A stretch of DNA of 64,000 nucleotides from a virus (taxonomy: Duplodnaviria > Caudoviricetes): positions 1 through 64,000 of the IMG/VR virus record IMGVR_UViG_3300029288_000060. One strand, given 5' to 3'. The position numbers and the translations under genes are program-made. Of this stretch, positions 399 to 28,635 are shown one piece after another. Numbering within the stretch: the stretch's first letter is position 1; each line of letters starts with the position of its first letter. The notes beneath the pieces are model-generated. The model was not told the origin of the DNA. It ran no database searches and saw only the letters and a list, made by a program, of their open reading frames with translations.

Positions 399-3300
399 AT
401 GTTCAGTATTAAAAGTTCTTTTGTTGATTGTCTTTCTTGTGAATTGTTTTCAGAACCATCTTGTATATTAGAGACCAATGTAAAATACTTAAATGAAGTT
501 AAAATTGTTTTTATTGCCGAGAATCCTGGTAAAGATGAAATATTACAAGGTTTACCATTAGTAGGTAAAGCTGGAAAATTATTTAGAAAATATTTTGAAA
601 AATTTGGATTAAATAAAATACCATATCTTTTAACCAATGTTGTTTTATGTCAAACTTTAAAAGAAGATGGAACAACAGGAAATCCATCACTTGAAGTTAT
701 TGAAAAATGTAAAGTAAATTGTATGAAAATTATTGAAAATTGTAATCCTGATTTAATAGTTTTGATGGGTTCATCTCCAACAAGTGCTTTTGGTTTATTA
801 CCTAAAGGAACAGGTATTACAAATATTAGGGGTGAGAAATTTAGTTGGAATAATAAAGATGTTTTTATTATGCTACATCCTTCATATATTAATAGAAATA
901 AAAGTATGGAACCAACTTTTGAAAATGATATGAAAAAAGTTGCGGAATTAATTGGAATAAAAACAATAACAGAACAACCAAATAAAGTAAATATAAAAAC
1001 AAAAAATGGAGTTTTCTATTATAAAATTCCAGATAAATATTATACATCAAACTATAAATTAATTGATGTACAATTTTTAAATAAAACAAATGAAGTTTTA
1101 TATATTTTTAGAGATAAAGATAATAAAAAAGAATATTATAAGACAAATGATGATTATGTATGTTATCAAATATCTGACGAGAGTAAAGCGAGAAAAGTAG
1201 TTAATTATAATGATTTAAATCAGATAGTAGTTTCATATAAAAATAAATATTCATTGAATCCAAAAATAACTTATGAAGGCGATTTAAAAATTACAACTAA
1301 ACATGCAATGGATTATTATATATTAAAAAAGGAAGAAGAACCAGATTTACCAATGAATATTATGTTTTTAGATATTGAAACATACTCAGAAACAAAGGTT
1401 CATAGTAACGCAATAGATGTTGAAGACGCAATTGCAATAATTAGATATTCATATAATGGAATAAAAAAATCATTAGTATTAGATCCAAAAATTTTAAAAA
1501 TAACTGATCAAAAAATTGATTTAAGTAATAAAGAAATTGTCGTGTGTAATTCGGAAGTAACATCATTAAATACATTTTTTAATGATATAAGAAATTTAGA
1601 TCCGAATTTTATTAGTGGTTGGTATAGTAATGATTTTGATATGCAATATATAATAAACAGATCCAAAAAAATCAATGTTGATTGCAGAAAAATATCAAAT
1701 TTTGGAGAAGCAGATTATAACAAATATCAATTTTATCCTGATGCTGCTGGAATTGTTTTTTTAGATATGTTAGAATTATATAAACAATTTACATTTGGCG
1801 GCAGGGAAAGTTACTCATTAGATTTTATTGGTAATTTAGAGTTAAAAAAAGGAAAAAATGAAAAAAGTTCTGACTTTTCAGATTTATTTAGAACAGATAT
1901 AAATCGTGCTATTAGGTATAACATTAATGACGTTGATTTATTGGAAGAATTAGATAAAAAATTGAAACACATCTTTTTTCAAGATGAATTAAAAAGAATT
2001 TGTAAAACCAGCTTTAGAGGATCAAAATCTGTCTTAGGTCAGATAGATTCCTTATTAGTCTCATTTTTGAAAGAAAAAGGATATTCCTCAAAAAATTCAG
2101 AAGTTATTGAAGGGGAAGAAAAATTCGAAGGTGCATATGTGCAAGAACCTATTGTTGGGGCACATGATTATATAGTGGATTTTGATTTTACTTCTCTATA
2201 CCCATCGTTGATTTTAACTTATAATATTGGTGTAAATACTTTTGTAATGAAATTGAAAGATTATCATATGGGTTATGATTTAGTTTACAATCCTGAAAAA
2301 TTACCTGAACAAATTGATGTTGTTATTGATCCTGTTTTTGAAAATAAATCTGTTACTATTGCTAGAGATCAATTATTAAATAAAATAAAATCTAGCAACT
2401 TGGTTTATACAATCAATGGTTGTTTTTTTAAAAACCATAATACTGAATTGTCATATTTTGCAGAAGTGTTAGAAATGTTATTAGGATCTAGAAAACTTTA
2501 TAAAAAGAAAATGTTTGAAGCAAAAAATGCAAAAAACGAAGAAAAAGAAAAATTGTTTGATACTCGTCAGTTAGTATACAAAGTTTTAGCTAACACTTGT
2601 TATGGAGTTCTCGCAAATAAAGTATTCAGATTTTTTAATATTGATTCTGCAAGATCAATTACATTGAGTGGTCAGGAAGCTATTAAAAATGTAATGATAT
2701 CTGGAGAAAATTATATTGAGTCTAAAAGAACAAATAAACCATTTGAAGTTAAAGAGATTACTAAACAACAAATGTTTTCTGATAATATGGGTCTAACATT
2801 TAAAAATCTTGTGACAGGAGACACCGATAGTATCTTTCTAAAATATGATAATATCATAGATAAAACAAAGTCTAACGAAGAAAAATTAGATTTTGTAAAT
2901 AATTTAAATAAAGAAGTACAAGATTTTCTAAACAATGATATAGTAAAAAGAATTGTTTTAAAACATAATGTTCCAGAAAATAAAAATAGATTAGATCTTA
3001 AAAATGAGCTAGTAATTAAAAGAGGGTTATTTTTAGCTAAAAAAAGATATGCTCTTTATATTATTAGTCAAGAAGGGAATGAAACTTCAGAAATTAAAGC
3101 TATGGGATTAGAAATTAAAAGATCGGATTTTTCAAAAGTCACAAAAGATTATTTAAAAGAGGTTCTTGAACTAATATTAAAACCCGAGAAGTTAACAATG
3201 ACAAAAGTATTAAATTATGTAACTGACAAACAAGAAATGTTTACTAAGATTATTTCATCTGGAGTTACTAAAATTGGAAGACCTGTATCATTTGGAAAGA

Positions 3301-3641
3301 AAATTTCAGAATACAAGACTTTATCTCAAGGTGTAAAGTCAATGGTTAACTGGAATAATTTGGAATATCATATATTTGATGTTGGATCGAGAGCGTATTT
3401 GTTCAAATTAAAAGGTATTGATTTAGATAAAGCTCCAGAGGAGGTAAGATTAAATTTTGATAAACATTTTCTAAAGAAAGGAGTTAAATTAGAGGTCATT
3501 GCAGTTCCAGAAGAAGTAGAGAAACTACCGGAATATTATATTATAGATGTAAAAGATATGGTAAATTTTGCGTGGACAGATAGATATAATTTATTATTAG
3601 AACCATTAATAACTAAAAAACAAGAAATATTAACGTTTTAA
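399..3641 (+). CDS. polB: Family-B DNA polymerase with N-terminal family-4 uracil-DNA glycosylase domain
   Basis: UDG: CxxC, AENPGKDE, GKAGK, TNVVLC, HPSY. Exonuclease: FLDIET, YNINDV. Polymerase: DFTSLYPS, KVLANTCYG, GDTDS, KKRY. Confidence 0.95.
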   Translation: MFSIKSSFVDCLSCELFSEPSCILETNVKYLNEVKIVFIAENPGKDEILQGLPLVGKAGKLFRKYFEKFGLNKIPYLLTNVVLCQTLKEDGTTGNPSLEVIEKCKVNCMKIIENCNPDLIVLMGSSPTSAFGLLPKGTGITNIRGEKFSWNNKDVFIMLHPSYINRNKSMEPTFENDMKKVAELIGIKTITEQPNKVNIKTKNGVFYYKIPDKYYTSNYKLIDVQFLNKTNEVLYIFRDKDNKKEYYKTNDDYVCYQISDESKARKVVNYNDLNQIVVSYKNKYSLNPKITYEGDLKITTKHAMDYYILKKEEEPDLPMNIMFLDIETYSETKVHSNAIDVEDAIAIIRYSYNGIKKSLVLDPKILKITDQKIDLSNKEIVVCNSEVTSLNTFFNDIRNLDPNFISGWYSNDFDMQYIINRSKKINVDCRKISNFGEADYNKYQFYPDAAGIVFLDMLELYKQFTFGGRESYSLDFIGNLELKKGKNEKSSDFSDLFRTDINRAIRYNINDVDLLEELDKKLKHIFFQDELKRICKTSFRGSKSVLGQIDSLLVSFLKEKGYSSKNSEVIEGEEKFEGAYVQEPIVGAHDYIVDFDFTSLYPSLILTYNIGVNTFVMKLKDYHMGYDLVYNPEKLPEQIDVVIDPVFENKSVTIARDQLLNKIKSSNLVYTINGCFFKNHNTELSYFAEVLEMLLGSRKLYKKKMFEAKNAKNEEKEKLFDTRQLVYKVLANTCYGVLANKVFRFFNIDSARSITLSGQEAIKNVMISGENYIESKRTNKPFEVKEITKQQMFSDNMGLTFKNLVTGDTDSIFLKYDNIIDKTKSNEEKLDFVNNLNKEVQDFLNNDIVKRIVLKHNVPENKNRLDLKNELVIKRGLFLAKKRYALYIISQEGNETSEIKAMGLEIKRSDFSKVTKDYLKEVLELILKPEKLTMTKVLNYVTDKQEMFTKIISSGVTKIGRPVSFGKKISEYKTLSQGVKSMVNWNNLEYHIFDVGSRAYLFKLKGIDLDKAPEEVRLNFDKHFLKKGVKLEVIAVPEEVEKLPEYYIIDVKDMVNFAWTDRYNLLLEPLITKKQEILTF

Positions 3642-25095: not shown

Positions 25096-25281
25096 TTAAT
25101 ATTGACCCTCATACCCGCATTCACAACATTCATTTGGTCTTCCGCAAATAAGACAAGTTATTTCACCATTGTCTTCTAGACATCCGTTTAACATAAGTTG
25201 TAAGGATTCTCCGATGGTTGGGTTTAACTCTTCTAGAGTTATTTTACCATCTAAAAATTTTTGTGCAGTATTTATATCCAT
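25096..25281 (-). CDS. Small Cys-rich hypothetical protein
   Basis: SD AAGGAG; CLICGRPNECCECG. Confidence 0.65.
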   Translation of the reverse strand: MDINTAQKFLDGKITLEELNPTIGESLQLMLNGCLEDNGEITCLICGRPNECCECGYEGQY

Positions 25282-25314
25282 ATTGTCTTCTCCTTAATTC
25301 TTTTTTATTTAAAG

Positions 25315-25427
25315 TGGTGCGGGGCAGGGATTGAACCTACATGGACATTCTGTTTCAATGGTTTTAGCTCTGCCCAGAATGTAATAACCTTAGAGCGATT
25401 AGCGTCTACCCATTCCGCCACCCGCAC
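25315..25427 (-). tRNA. Atypical tRNA-like RNA (about 113 nt), anticodon ambiguous, oversized variable region
   Basis: Leu/Ser/Tyr-type D arm GCGGAATGGGTAGACGC; T arm GTAGG-TTCAATC-CCTGC; GTGCGGG/CCCGCAC acceptor pairing; TAATC/GGTTA stem with loop GCTCTAA. Confidence 0.6.
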
Positions 25428-25444
25428 CATTTGGTTAATCTTAT

Positions 25445-25591
25445 TTACCAATATTCAGGATATGCATCGTCATAATCGTTTCCGTACTCCAAAAAACCTC
25501 CGCACGTCATACATTCATCTATTTCAATTTCTTCTTCAGTGACCTCTCGACCACATATAGCACAATACACTCCTGTTGTTTCAGTTAACAT
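25445..25591 (-). CDS. 48-aa zinc-ribbon protein (not in ORF track)
   Basis: SD GGAGG; MLTETTGVYCAICGREV...ECMTCGG. Confidence 0.65.
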   Translation of the reverse strand: MLTETTGVYCAICGREVTEEEIEIDECMTCGGFLEYGNDYDDAYPEYW

Positions 25592-25607
25592 AATTGCCTC
25601 CAACTAA

Positions 25608-25790
25608 TTAATTAGATTCTTTTTGTTTTTCAATTATTAAATTATTTATTATATTTTCAGCACGCATAAGGTCTTCCTTGTCTACTGAAAATGATTTCCT
25701 TTTTTCTACAAGAACTTGTGCATAAATTCTTGTTTTTAACTTCTGTAATTCTTCTATTGACATATTTTTTACTTCATCTGATATTATCAT
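25608..25790 (-). CDS. Small hypothetical protein
   Basis: SD AGGAGG; 60 aa. Confidence 0.65.
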   Translation of the reverse strand: MIISDEVKNMSIEELQKLKTRIYAQVLVEKRKSFSVDKEDLMRAENIINNLIIEKQKESN

Positions 25791-25952
25791 TTATTCCTCC
25801 TATATTTAAAATAACCTCCCACGTTAGGCCCGAACTACGTCGGACTCCCTTCTGTCAATGCAAAGAATGACTTAATCGGGGTCTTGGACACCACAACCCA
25901 TCATTCTAGTGGTACAAGTGGCTATTATTTTTTTTAATTTTTTGTTTATTTC

Positions 25953-26150
25953 TTAATCGTCGTCCACTCGGAAAAAAGATGATTTATCAAAACTTTTTAT
26001 ACAGCCCATACAAATACTAATATCAAGAAAGTTATATCTTCCTTCATTACAAGCGATTGCTTTTTTACATTTATTGCAATAGGTTACTTTTGGACATTTT
26101 CCTTTACAATCTCCATATAAAAAAAATGGAAGTCTGACATTGTTTCCCAT
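25953..26150 (-). CDS. Small Cys-rich hypothetical protein
   Basis: Several CxxC motifs; start uncertain. Confidence 0.5.
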   Translation of the reverse strand: MGNNVRLPFFLYGDCKGKCPKVTYCNKCKKAIACNEGRYNFLDISICMGCIKSFDKSSFFRVDDD

Positions 26151-26214: not shown

Positions 26215-26255
26215 TGGTGAGACAATGAATATAAAACAAATTCATTGTCTCACCA
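26215..26255. other. Perfect 16-bp hairpin downstream (minus sense) of the pentamer array
   Basis: TGGTGAGACAATGAAT / ATTCATTGTCTCACCA; no clear U tract on the minus strand. Confidence 0.75.
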
Positions 26256-26302
26256 GATTCTGTTAAGGTTTACTTTTGCAAGAGCATGCATCATGTCATA
26301 TA

Positions 26303-26617
26303 GCCTCGCATTAACGAAACCCTACGCTACCCCGCAGCACACCACTCTTGCGTTACCATACGTAACTCGATCCCACTTCGCTTCTCAATAACAACACTTC
26401 CCTTTACCACGTACCACGCCACTTCGCCTTTACATAAATTTACAACACACCGCTCCACATTTACATTACTTTTGCGCCTCATTACTACACTTTGCACAAC
26501 TTTACCTTCGCGAATCATCACACCGCTCCGCTTCGCCTTTACAACACTATAATTCACGTCACTATACTATACCTTTGCGCGACCTCACCTAGCGCGACTT
26601 CGCTTTTGCTTTACCTT
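26303..26617 (-). repeat. Degenerate pentamer array (NNN-G-Y)n, about 61 units with 1-nt phase shifts; candidate guide-RNA array for the adjacent Cas7-like protein
   Basis: Manual minus-strand parse: 53 of 61 units end in GT/GC; 10 units are hexamers (e.g. AAAGGT, AAAGGC) that divide the array into mostly 31-41-nt segments; more GC-rich than flanks. Confidence 0.85.
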
Positions 26618-26651
26618 GTAATCACTCAAATTAATGAATGTTACAAATATG

Positions 26652-26685
26652 ACTGGGAAGGAATTAAACATTTTTCCTTCCCAGT
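26652..26685. other. 12-bp hairpin between Cas7-like stop codon and array
   Basis: ACTGGGAAGGAA / TTCCTTCCCAGT. Confidence 0.75.
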
Positions 26686-26695
26686 TATTTAAAAC

Positions 26696-27346
26696 TTAAT
26701 CTTCTTTAACGACTTCTTTGTAGACAAATCTTCCGTAACTTCCATTACGAAACTGACCAAGCCCGCAGTACTGACCGTACTCGAGAAACTTCTCGATCAT
26801 TTCCATGGTTAACCACTTGTTCGGCAAAACTCGAATTTCAATTTGAAACTTTAATCCTGGATTAATATAATCCGACTTTGCTAAACAAACCCGTGAAAAA
26901 CCCGTTCTTTGATCTTCTGCACGCAACGGTCTTTCGATTATACCATCTGGCTCTTTGACGTTGAGAATTATGTTACGCGGAAAGACAAACACGTATTTAT
27001 CTATCCTTCCTTTGACGTCATAAATTCCAGCTGGATCGAATAGAAACTGCATTCCTGCTCCAGCACTTTTAAGAAAACCACGGATCTGGTAGTCCATCAA
27101 CATTAGTCCTTTTTCCGGATCCGTATAAAAGCCAGTGTAACCTTTTTCTTCCTCAACAATGTCTGGAATCTCGTCGTCTCCATTAACTTCTGTTGGACGT
27201 TTTGATCCAGTATATTTATCAAAAACGTCCTGGTTTTTCGCAATGGTTCCTAACATTGCAGTTGTGGTTTCTACTTCAAATACCTTTGAAACAATTGCAC
27301 TCGCCAACGCCTTTTTCTTCTCTTTTTTCACTTTTTCCTCTTCCAT
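26696..27346 (-). CDS. Stand-alone Cas7/RAMP-superfamily protein
   Basis: N-terminal strand FEVETTTAMLGT; YQIRGFLKSA helix; IERPLRA...LAKSDYINPGLKFQIEI; C-terminal glycine-rich loop GLGQFRNGSYGRF; SD AGGAGAGG. Confidence 0.8.
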   Translation of the reverse strand: MEEEKVKKEKKKALASAIVSKVFEVETTTAMLGTIAKNQDVFDKYTGSKRPTEVNGDDEIPDIVEEEKGYTGFYTDPEKGLMLMDYQIRGFLKSAGAGMQFLFDPAGIYDVKGRIDKYVFVFPRNIILNVKEPDGIIERPLRAEDQRTGFSRVCLAKSDYINPGLKFQIEIRVLPNKWLTMEMIEKFLEYGQYCGLGQFRNGSYGRFVYKEVVKED

Positions 27347-28264: not shown

Positions 28265-28338
28265 TGGCTAACGTGGAAGGATTCGAACCTTCATTTCTGG
28301 AGTCAGAGTCCAGCGTCCTGCCGTTGGACGACACGTCA
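28265..28338 (-). tRNA. tRNA-Gln(CUG)
   Basis: Full cloverleaf: TGACGTG/CACGTTA acceptor, CTGGA-CT CTG AC-TCCAG, GAAGG-TTCGAAT-CCTTC, encoded CCA. Confidence 0.95.
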
Positions 28339-28547: not shown

Positions 28548-28635
28548 TGGTGGGAGAGACGGGACTTGAACCCGTACAGAATTTAGTTCCGAGGGATTTT
28601 AAGTCCCTTGTGTCTACCAATTCCACCACTCTCCC
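28548..28635 (-). tRNA. tRNA-Leu(UAA)
   Basis: GGGAGAG/CTCTCCC acceptor, AGGGA-CT TAA AA-TCCCT, long variable arm, ACGGG-TTCAAGT-CCCGT, encoded CCA. Confidence 0.95.

What the first reader, a model, noticed from the sequence alone, without database searches (positions are those of the whole stretch)
26215..27346. Solitary Cas7/RAMP-like gene plus a hairpin-flanked (NNN-GY)n pentamer array: candidate minimal RNA-guided system without CRISPR repeats
SEEN: the 216-aa minus-strand ORF ends in a RAMP-type glycine-rich loop (GLGQFRNGSYGRF) and has a Cas7-like YQIRGFLKSA helix. About 80 nt past its stop, on the same strand, lies a 315-nt tract (26617 to 26303) that parses as aaggt aaagc aaaagc gaagt cgcgc taggt gaggt cgcgc aaaggt atagt atagt gacgt gaatt atagt gttgt aaaggc gaagc ggagc ggtgt... 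By hand count 53 of 61 units end in G-pyrimidine while the first three bases vary freely. Perfect hairpins bracket it (12 bp at 26652-26685; 16 bp at 26215-26255). No cas1/2/3/5/6/8/10 and no repeat-spacer array occur in the window. KNOWN: Cas7 subunits polymerise along guide RNA with a fixed nucleotide footprint, flipping out bases periodically. INFERENCE: each pentamer is one protomer footprint, GY being the protein-bound constant and the variable bases forming a discontinuous guide, probably for silencing competing phage or host DNA. From memory (unverified), this matches the architecture of recently reported viral VIPR-type systems with GGY/NN RNAs; here only GY is fixed, so it may be a divergent code variant.
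Basis: partly seen in the sequence, partly recalled or inferred. Interest (0 to 1): 0.97.

Follow-up and report, generated by a model that had tools for sequence, protein, structure and literature searches.

The report
Jumbo-phage VIPR guide-RNA system
This 269-kb phage carries a genuine VIPR system (a lone Cas7-like protein plus an array of five-base guide-RNA repeats), a CRISPR-related kind first described in 2026, so it is a real but already known type of system.

Summary
The tract 26303-26617 (minus strand) is a real period-5 NNNGY array. It has 53 GY units and a chain score of 38, against 5.3 at most in shuffles. The 216-aa ORF folds as a Cas7-type RAMP. Profile-profile comparison shows it is homologous over its full length to the solved SUSP1 Vipr (PDB 36pp; 94.5%, E 7.5e-8). 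Of 58 homologous loci, 56 carry the same kind of array next to the gene on the same strand. There is no Cas1, no CRISPR-like repeat and no conserved accessory gene. This is a stand-alone member of the VIPR family (bioRxiv 10.64898/2026.04.26.720920), which already lists YNNNG repeat variants. This scan has noted VIPR loci before, in at least 116 other genomes.

Three details are added here. Both SUSP1 residues that read the first G are replaced (H17 to T34, D177 to Q198), while the contacts for the second G and the pyrimidine are kept. That fits NGY replacing GGY. Arrays of this clade are punctuated by NNNGGY 6-mers every 21-36 nt. There is no internal tail element. No target could be established; the candidate matches are marginal.

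The parts
26696..27346 (-). The vipr gene: a 216-aa stand-alone RAMP (Cas7-like) protein, preceded by the Shine-Dalgarno sequence AAGGAGAGG
   Evidence: AlphaFold2 model has pLDDT 86.6. The top folds are type VII Cas7, Csm3, Cmr4 and Csf2, with Foldseek E 1e-8 and VIA Z 11.3. hhalign against the SUSP1 Vipr clade gives 94.5% probability and E 7.5e-8 over 177 columns. No Pfam or PHROG family matches.
26649..26688 (-). Hairpin between the vipr stop codon and the array, with a 12-bp perfect core
   Evidence: Folding energy is -21.9 kcal/mol, z -6.2, and it appears as inverted repeat I2. The stem is kept through compensatory changes in the relative whose protein is 71% identical, L048.
26618..26650 (-). 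Leader between the hairpin and the first repeat. The stretch CATATTTGTAACATT is shared with L048. It may hold a promoter or a processing site.
   Evidence: Alignment A3. The consensus scan called no sigma-70-like site here. The genome's AGAACAAA motif is absent from 24-30 kb.
26303..26617 (-). The vrRNA array: 61 units of NNNGY, 53 of them with an intact GY and nine of them 6-mers (four of the nine read NNNGGY). The 6-mers are spaced 31-36 nt apart over most of the array.
   Evidence: No invariant internal tail element and no known RNA family is present.
26215..26255 (-). A 16-bp perfect hairpin 48 nt past the last repeat. It is probably the 3' end or terminator of the array transcript. L048 has a canonical T-run terminator at the same place.

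Best explanation
The locus is a minimal VIPR system of a jumbo phage: one vipr gene and one vrRNA array, with no accessory gene.

By analogy with the solved SUSP1 system, the array is transcribed from the vipr strand. Vipr protomers then polymerise along the RNA, one per 5-nt unit. Each protomer locks the constant G and pyrimidine in pockets formed by the G-loop, the thumb and helix 1, and presents the free bases for gapped pairing with double-stranded DNA. Binding silences transcription of the matched gene, most likely in a competing phage or other mobile element.

Shown here: the array itself, the RAMP fold, homology to a bona fide Vipr, the gene-array linkage across the family, and the absence of CRISPR parts.

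Inferred: transcription of the array, filament assembly, the pairing rule, and the targets.

In this clade the first G of the canonical GGY is free. This fits the replacement of both SUSP1 residues that read it.
For: The array is far above chance.

The fold is RAMP or Cas7 in all of the top 45 or more PDB matches.

hhalign of this clade (A1) against the SUSP1 clade (A2) gives 94.5% probability and E 7.5e-8 over the full length. The SUSP1 ORF was confirmed to be the deposited 'SUSP1 Vipr protein' 36pp. Its residue numbers also match those quoted in the structure paper.

The same GY-chain detector recovers exactly the four published SUSP1 vrRNAs.

Same-strand adjacent arrays were found in 42 of 43 IMG/VR loci, 14 of 15 genome loci and L048, ranging from 9 to 307 units.

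Over 2,321 family 5-mers, positions 1-3 are variable. The parse itself anchors on G at position 4 and C or T at position 5.

G-loop mapping: SUSP1 D177, W178 and R179 align with Q198, F199 and R200; H17 aligns with T34; R138 aligns with K157.

The record is a virus record, with no Cas1 and no CRISPR-like repeats.
Against: No significant target was found under any decoding rule.

The strict GGY/NN consensus is not met. The array also lacks the invariant 3' tail or pseudoknot that caps each type II vrRNA.

The sequence link to SUSP1 Vipr is weak without profiles: a family HMM scores E 2e-4 against the SUSP1 ORFs, and a profile against the single SUSP1 sequence gives 73% probability over the G-loop only.
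Confidence: 0.9

Rival explanations
1. The locus is a degraded or orphan CRISPR-Cas remnant. On this reading a Cas7-family gene was left behind without its operon, and the tract is unrelated simple-sequence DNA.
For: The closest solved folds are CRISPR Cas7 subunits. The only weak PDB sequence hit is the Csm4 G-loop.
Against: The gene-array pair is conserved in 56 of 58 loci from many phyla with no cas neighbours. The protein is homologous to SUSP1 Vipr over its full length. The genome has no Cas1 and no CRISPR-like repeat.
Confidence: 0.02
2. The period-5 tract acts as DNA rather than RNA, for example as an iteron-like or phased protein-binding array, or as a replication or packaging element. 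The RAMP protein would then bind some other RNA.
For: No transcript was observed here. Arrays can be very long: 1.6 kb in L009. No clear promoter was called.
Against: The array strand always follows the gene strand. The constant G-pyrimidine matches the bases that Vipr's conserved pockets hold in RNA. In SUSP1 the equivalent arrays are transcribed and co-purify with Vipr.
Confidence: 0.04
3. The system regulates the phage's own genes instead of attacking rivals, or as well as doing so. It could, for example, shut off replication genes such as DNA polymerase and DNA ligase.
For: Reading the three free bases contiguously, one module matches the phage's own DNA polymerase gene 18/18 in frame (window 702-719, peptide EKCKVN). 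Another module matches 15 nt at the ligase ribosome-binding site (30938). In all there are 4 windows with hits, against 0.47 expected from unit permutation, P 0.006.
Against: The result does not survive correction for the roughly 14 rule variants tried. When mismatches are allowed there is no excess over permutation. It is not replicated in the related phage G1. The discovery paper found no self-targeting.
Confidence: 0.04

Closest known systems
VIPR systems (Vipr protein plus vrRNA). The type II exemplar is Escherichia phage SUSP1, PDB 36pp. Sources: bioRxiv 10.64898/2026.04.26.720920, .720927 and 10.64898/2026.10.15.759431.
   Same: Both have a roughly 20-25 kDa stand-alone RAMP with a G-loop, a thumb and an N-terminal helical region. 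Both have a same-strand array of 5-nt repeats with a constant G-pyrimidine and hypervariable bases. Both are phage-encoded and have no cas genes or CRISPR array. Homology covers the full length by profile-profile comparison.
   Different: Only GY is fixed in the 5-mers; G at the G1 position occurs in 24% of family units. Full GGY is confined to the 6-mers that recur every 21-36 nt. The array is one continuous 315-nt tract with no per-guide tail or pseudoknot. There is no vap gene. The G1-contact residues H17 and D177 are replaced by T34 and Q198. The paper's Methods mention YNNNG repeats and 'staggered' arrays, so these differences may already fall within one of its seven types. The type could not be assigned from the text held.
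CRISPR-Cas Cas7-family backbone subunits: type VII Cas7, type III Csm3 and Cmr4, type IV Csf2
   Same: [quoted passage not shown] Foldseek E is 1e-8 and VIA Z is 10-11.3 over about 135-165 residues.
   Different: Sequence identity is 7-18%. There is no cas operon, no repeat-spacer array and no Cas6-type processing partner. The footprint is 5 nt with gapped pairing, not 6 nt with one flipped base.
Other VIPR variants already noted in this scan, such as the NYG and GA-NNN codes (e1-5349898, e1-5346858)
   Same: A lone RAMP plus a pentamer array with a non-canonical constant motif and short guide units.
   Different: These are different genomes and different constant motifs. They are unchecked AI notes, used only as leads.

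Membership tests
VIPR (Vipr + vrRNA) | The protein is a RAMP with an RRM core, a glycine-rich loop and a thumb | tested here: met
   The model has pLDDT 86.6. It shows a beta-hairpin at 135-161 carrying the invariant R139, R152 and S158, and a C-terminal G-loop at 195-207. All top PDB folds are Cas7-type RAMPs.
VIPR (Vipr + vrRNA) | Sequence homology to an experimentally characterised Vipr | tested here: met
   hhalign of A1 against A2 (the SUSP1 clade) gives 94.5% probability, E 7.5e-8, over 177 aligned columns. The SUSP1 ORF is identical to PDB 36pp 'SUSP1 Vipr protein'.
VIPR (Vipr + vrRNA) | A tandem 5-nt repeat array next to vipr on the same strand, with constant and hypervariable positions | tested here: met
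   for this window. for 56 of 58 homologous loci.
VIPR (Vipr + vrRNA) | The canonical GGY/NN (YNNGG) repeat consensus | tested here: not met
   The 5-mers are NNNGY. The third free position is G in 7 of 36 units here and in 24% of family units. The discovery paper accepts YNNNG, NNNGG and NNNNG variants as vrRNAs, so this does not exclude membership.
VIPR (Vipr + vrRNA) | A structured, invariant 3' tail on each vrRNA (type II) | tested here: not met
   There is no invariant interspersed element, only degenerate partial repeats. No Rfam family or hammerhead is present. A single 16-bp hairpin follows the whole array.
VIPR (Vipr + vrRNA) | An accessory vap gene in the operon (typical, but not universal) | tested here: not met
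   No neighbouring ORF is conserved across 44 loci, nor in the 71%-identical relative. The neighbours have no Pfam family.
VIPR (Vipr + vrRNA) | A viral or mobile-element context without cas genes or a CRISPR array | tested here: met
   G000 is a 268,812-bp virus record. It has no Cas1, no CRISPR-like repeats and only one RAMP.
VIPR (Vipr + vrRNA) | The array is transcribed and the RNA co-purifies with Vipr | not testable with these tools
VIPR (Vipr + vrRNA) | Guides match natural DNA targets by the one-nucleotide-skip (NNx) rule | tested here: inconclusive
   None of this window's own modules exceeds the permutation controls. One 8-unit guide of the related phage G1 matches this genome 16/16 in frame (P 0.10). 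It also has 6 of 8 third-base matches, above all 23 background hits.
CRISPR-Cas class 1 effector (Cas7) | Encoded in a cas operon with a repeat-spacer array | tested here: not met

The most novel reading that the evidence does not exclude
In this vap-less Vipr clade the long arrays are not single guides. They are strings of short modules of 4-7 units, each opened by a full NNNGGY unit. A module is about the length of one turn of the Vipr filament, which has 5-6 subunits per turn in SUSP1. These modules may read whole codon-length triplets of orthologous genes in rival jumbo phages while sparing the phage's own allele. Some modules may also touch the phage's own replication genes.
Probability: 0.2. 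Interest if true: 0.6.

Novelty: new member of a known kind. Interest (0 to 1): 0.38.

Why it matters
The finding shows that VIPR, the proposed viral ancestor of the CRISPR RAMP effectors, occurs as a bare gene-plus-array cassette in an AT-rich jumbo phage of at least 269 kb. The same clade occurs in phages and genomes of many anaerobic lineages.

Two points bear directly on how the code is written and read, and both can be tested. First, loss of the first-G contacts goes together with loss of the first G in the repeats. Second, NNNGGY units punctuate the arrays at regular intervals. Tests would include mutating Q198 and T34, sequencing the small RNAs, and solving a filament on an NGY array.

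As a discovery in its own right it adds little. The system class, its variants and its biology are already in print, and this scan has met it many times.

Tried and rejected
1. Pfam, PHROGs and a single-sequence PDB search of the protein gave nothing significant, apart from the Csm4 G-loop at E 0.31.

2. A strict period-5 Fourier scan misses the array because the 6-mers shift the phase. It was replaced by a GY-chain detector.

3. UniProt or NCBI accessions linking the family to the paper's seed proteins could not be obtained. None were returned, and the paper's supplements are not held. The VIPR type (I-VII) therefore could not be assigned.

4. No hammerhead or other Rfam family was found in this locus or in 20 related loci; only tRNAs matched.

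5. No conserved vap gene was found.

6. Stop-codon depletion in the free triplets is weak (79 observed against 107 expected) and does not settle the reading rule.

7. Seven skip rules, each with two ways of treating the 6-mers, were tested against 516 kb of loci plus the phage's own genome. None gave an excess over reversed controls.

8. Mismatch-tolerant scans of the phage's own genome showed no excess over permutation.

9. Exact IMG/VR scans were run for decoded modules. M7 under the NNx rule gave one hit, in a low-complexity repeat, with 2 of 8 third bases matching. The M4, M8 and M9 21-mers gave no hits.

10. Module M2 matches an RNA-polymerase-beta-like gene of the relative G4 14/14 in frame, while the phage's own ortholog differs. 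It looked attractive, but it is at chance level: the permutation mean is 1.44 in-frame hits, P 0.67.

11. The second copy of the leader motif, at 237050, lies inside coding sequence and is taken as chance.

12. Arrays that score on both strands (L006, L040) are explained by the pyrimidine being mostly C, because GC is self-complementary.

14. Complex prediction was not used, because a filament of one protein is a poor case for it.

Full report
**1. What is in the sequence**

On the minus strand the locus reads, in order:
- a 216-aa ORF (27346 to 26696) with a good Shine-Dalgarno sequence;
- a hairpin (26688-26649);
- a 32-nt leader;
- a 315-nt tract (26617-26303);
- 48 nt further on, a 16-bp perfect hairpin (26255-26215).

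The tract has a lag-5 identity of 0.435, against 0.19-0.30 at neighbouring lags. I wrote a chain detector that links G-pyrimidine dinucleotides 5 nt apart and penalises spacings of 4 or 6 nt and skipped units. The tract scores 38.0 with 53 GY units. Ten shuffles of the 64-kb window give 5.3 at most, and nothing else in the whole 268,812-bp genome exceeds 7.1.

Nine units are 6-mers and eight GY positions are degenerate. Among the 36 clean 5-mers, position 4 is always G and position 5 is T (26) or C (10). Positions 1-3 vary. Both the observation and the coordinates stand.

**2. The protein**

Pfam and PHROGs give nothing. The family is nevertheless large: 1,181 clusters at 50% identity with E of 1e-3 or better. 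An alignment of 49 members shows an almost invariant C-terminal GLGQFRNGSYGRF and a conserved helix DY.IRGFLK.

AlphaFold2 on that alignment gives pLDDT 86.6. Foldseek against the PDB returns only CRISPR RAMPs at the top: type VII Cas7, Csm3 and Cas7-11, with E down to 1.3e-8. An independent all-against-all structural search gives Z 11.3 to 9 for type VII Cas7, Csm3, Cmr4 and Csf2. The first non-CRISPR entry appears only at rank 30. The protein is therefore a Cas7-type RAMP with a G-loop and a thumb-like beta-hairpin (135-161).

**3. It is a Vipr**

The held literature contains the VIPR discovery paper (bioRxiv 10.64898/2026.04.26.720920), the structure paper (.720927) and a biology paper (10.64898/2026.10.15.759431).

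I fetched Escherichia phage SUSP1 (KT454805) to use as the reference. My detector finds exactly four arrays in it, one upstream and three downstream of a two-gene operon, as published. The 195-aa ORF of that operon is the deposited 'SUSP1 Vipr protein', PDB 36pp. It also carries the residues named in the structure paper at the right numbers.

A family HMM of my clade picks this ORF as the single best hit in the SUSP1 genome (E 2e-4). A profile-profile comparison of my clade against 33 SUSP1-clade proteins gives 94.5% probability and E 7.5e-8 over 177 columns, which is nearly the full length of both. Membership in the Vipr family is therefore supported both by homology and by fold.

**4. Gene-array linkage**

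- Of 43 IMG/VR loci encoding homologues (28-48% identity), 42 have a same-strand GY array of score 8 or more next to the gene. In most it lies directly downstream. Sizes range from 9 to 307 units.
- Of 15 loci in prokaryotic genome assemblies, 14 have one, and the fifteenth is cut off at the gene. The assemblies include Desulfobaccales, Cloacimonadota, Bacillota, Patescibacteria, Caldicoprobacter, Anaerolinea, Chloroflexota and an archaeon.
- The closest relative (71% identity, L048) has the same layout of gene, hairpin, leader, array and terminator. Its hairpin keeps pairing through compensatory changes, its leader shares a conserved stretch, and its array has entirely different free bases.
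- No neighbouring ORF is conserved, even in that relative.
- The ORF that can be drawn inside the array is not a conserved protein.
- The genome has no Cas1, no CRISPR-like repeats and no second RAMP.

**5. What differs from the published exemplar**

(a) *The repeat.* Over 2,321 family 5-mers, the base before the constant G is G in only 24% of units, so the consensus is NNNGY. The discovery paper's Methods list YNNNG as an alternative vrRNA repeat, so this variation is not new.

(b) *A structural rationale (inference from alignment).* In SUSP1 the first G is read by H17 and D177, the second G by R138 and W178, and the pyrimidine by R179 and helix 1. In the hhalign alignment these map as follows:

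| SUSP1 residue | This protein | Base contacted in SUSP1 |
|---|---|---|
| H17 | T34 | first G |
| D177 | Q198 | first G |
| R138 | K157 (R in most members) | second G |
| W178 | F199 | second G |
| R179 | R200 | pyrimidine |

Both first-G contacts are replaced. The contacts for the second G and the pyrimidine are kept.

(c) *Punctuation.* The 644 six-mers in the family arrays are NNNGGY, with 86% G at position 4. They recur at spacings of 21, 26, 31 and 36 nt (89, 175, 130 and 33 cases). Random placement at their overall frequency would make short gaps the commonest. In this window the spacings are 31, 36, 31, 36, 11, 31, 82 and 36 nt. Another first-stage note on this same stretch also remarked on higher-order punctuation. 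I cannot say whether this corresponds to the paper's 'staggered arrays', because the figures are not held.

(d) *No tail.* There is no invariant internal tail and no ribozyme.

(e) *No vap gene*.

**6. Targets**

I decoded the arrays under seven skip rules and searched the phage's own genome, all held loci and five related jumbo-phage contigs fetched for the purpose, 930 kb in all. Unit-permuted guides served as the null. Nothing for this window's array is significant under the published NNx rule.

Three leads are recorded but not claimed:

- *Own-genome matches.* Reading all three free bases contiguously, one module matches the phage's own DNA polymerase gene 18/18 in frame (window 702-719). 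Another matches 15 nt at the DNA ligase ribosome-binding site. The excess has P 0.006-0.016 by permutation. It is uncorrected for about 14 rule variants and is not replicated in relative G1.
- *A relative's guide hitting this genome.* The first module of relative G1 (Vipr 47% identical) matches this genome at 227373-227396. All 16 first and second codon bases match, as do 6 of 8 third bases, in frame with the peptide NLTNYKVN of a 278-aa ORF. G1's own ortholog reads NCTNHKIK at that site. P is 0.10 for the NN match alone. The third-base score exceeds all 23 background hits from 52 other arrays.
- *Module M2.* This module of the window's array matches an RNA-polymerase-beta-like gene of relative G4 14/14 in frame. 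That is at chance level, P 0.67.

Exact IMG/VR scans for four decoded modules found no credible target.

**7. Verdict**

It is a new member of a published kind, not a new kind. This scan has already noted VIPR-type loci in at least 116 other genomes.

The points that add something are the T34 and Q198 replacements that match the relaxed first G, the regular NNNGGY punctuation, and the bare cassette architecture in a jumbo phage. All three need experiments. The mechanism (a filament with one protomer per unit, gapped pairing and silencing) is inferred from SUSP1 and was not shown for this locus.

Noticed in passing
window 399-3641 (+): This is a 1,080-aa DNA polymerase with an N-terminal uracil-DNA-glycosylase-like domain. 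Its conserved IE[KR]CK.NC motif at 696-722 carries the 18/18 match to array module 4.
   Followed up: partly
window 28265-28338 and 28548-28635 (-): tRNA-Gln(CTG) and tRNA-Leu(TAA) lie about 1 kb upstream of vipr on the same strand. tRNA genes also lie within about 1.6 kb of the vipr gene or its arrays in L009, L018, L024 and L036.
   Followed up: no
G000:C1:227265-228101 (+), outside the window: A 278-aa ORF with a DxD-like motif and no Pfam or PHROG family. It is matched in frame by an 8-unit guide of the related phage IMGVR_UViG_3300026177_000194, whose own ortholog differs at four of the eight codons.
   Followed up: partly
L009 2120-2996 and 3649-5253: One IMG/VR phage has arrays of 168 and 307 units (0.9 and 1.6 kb) flanking its vipr gene. 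These are far longer than any vrRNA described in the text of the papers.
   Followed up: no
window 25096-26150 (-): A run of small cysteine-rich ORFs (52-65 aa, CxxC pairs) lies downstream of the array. One has a weak match to a TFIIB-type zinc ribbon (E 0.0017, below the cut-off).
   Followed up: no
L039: This is the only full homologue locus with no array beside the gene. It could be an orphan vipr, or its repeat may have a constant motif that my detector does not see.
   Followed up: no
L047 7300-7400: A tail-fibre-like ORF has a long PPFFF/SPPAFF repeat. Its antisense strand gave the single spurious pattern hit.
   Followed up: yes
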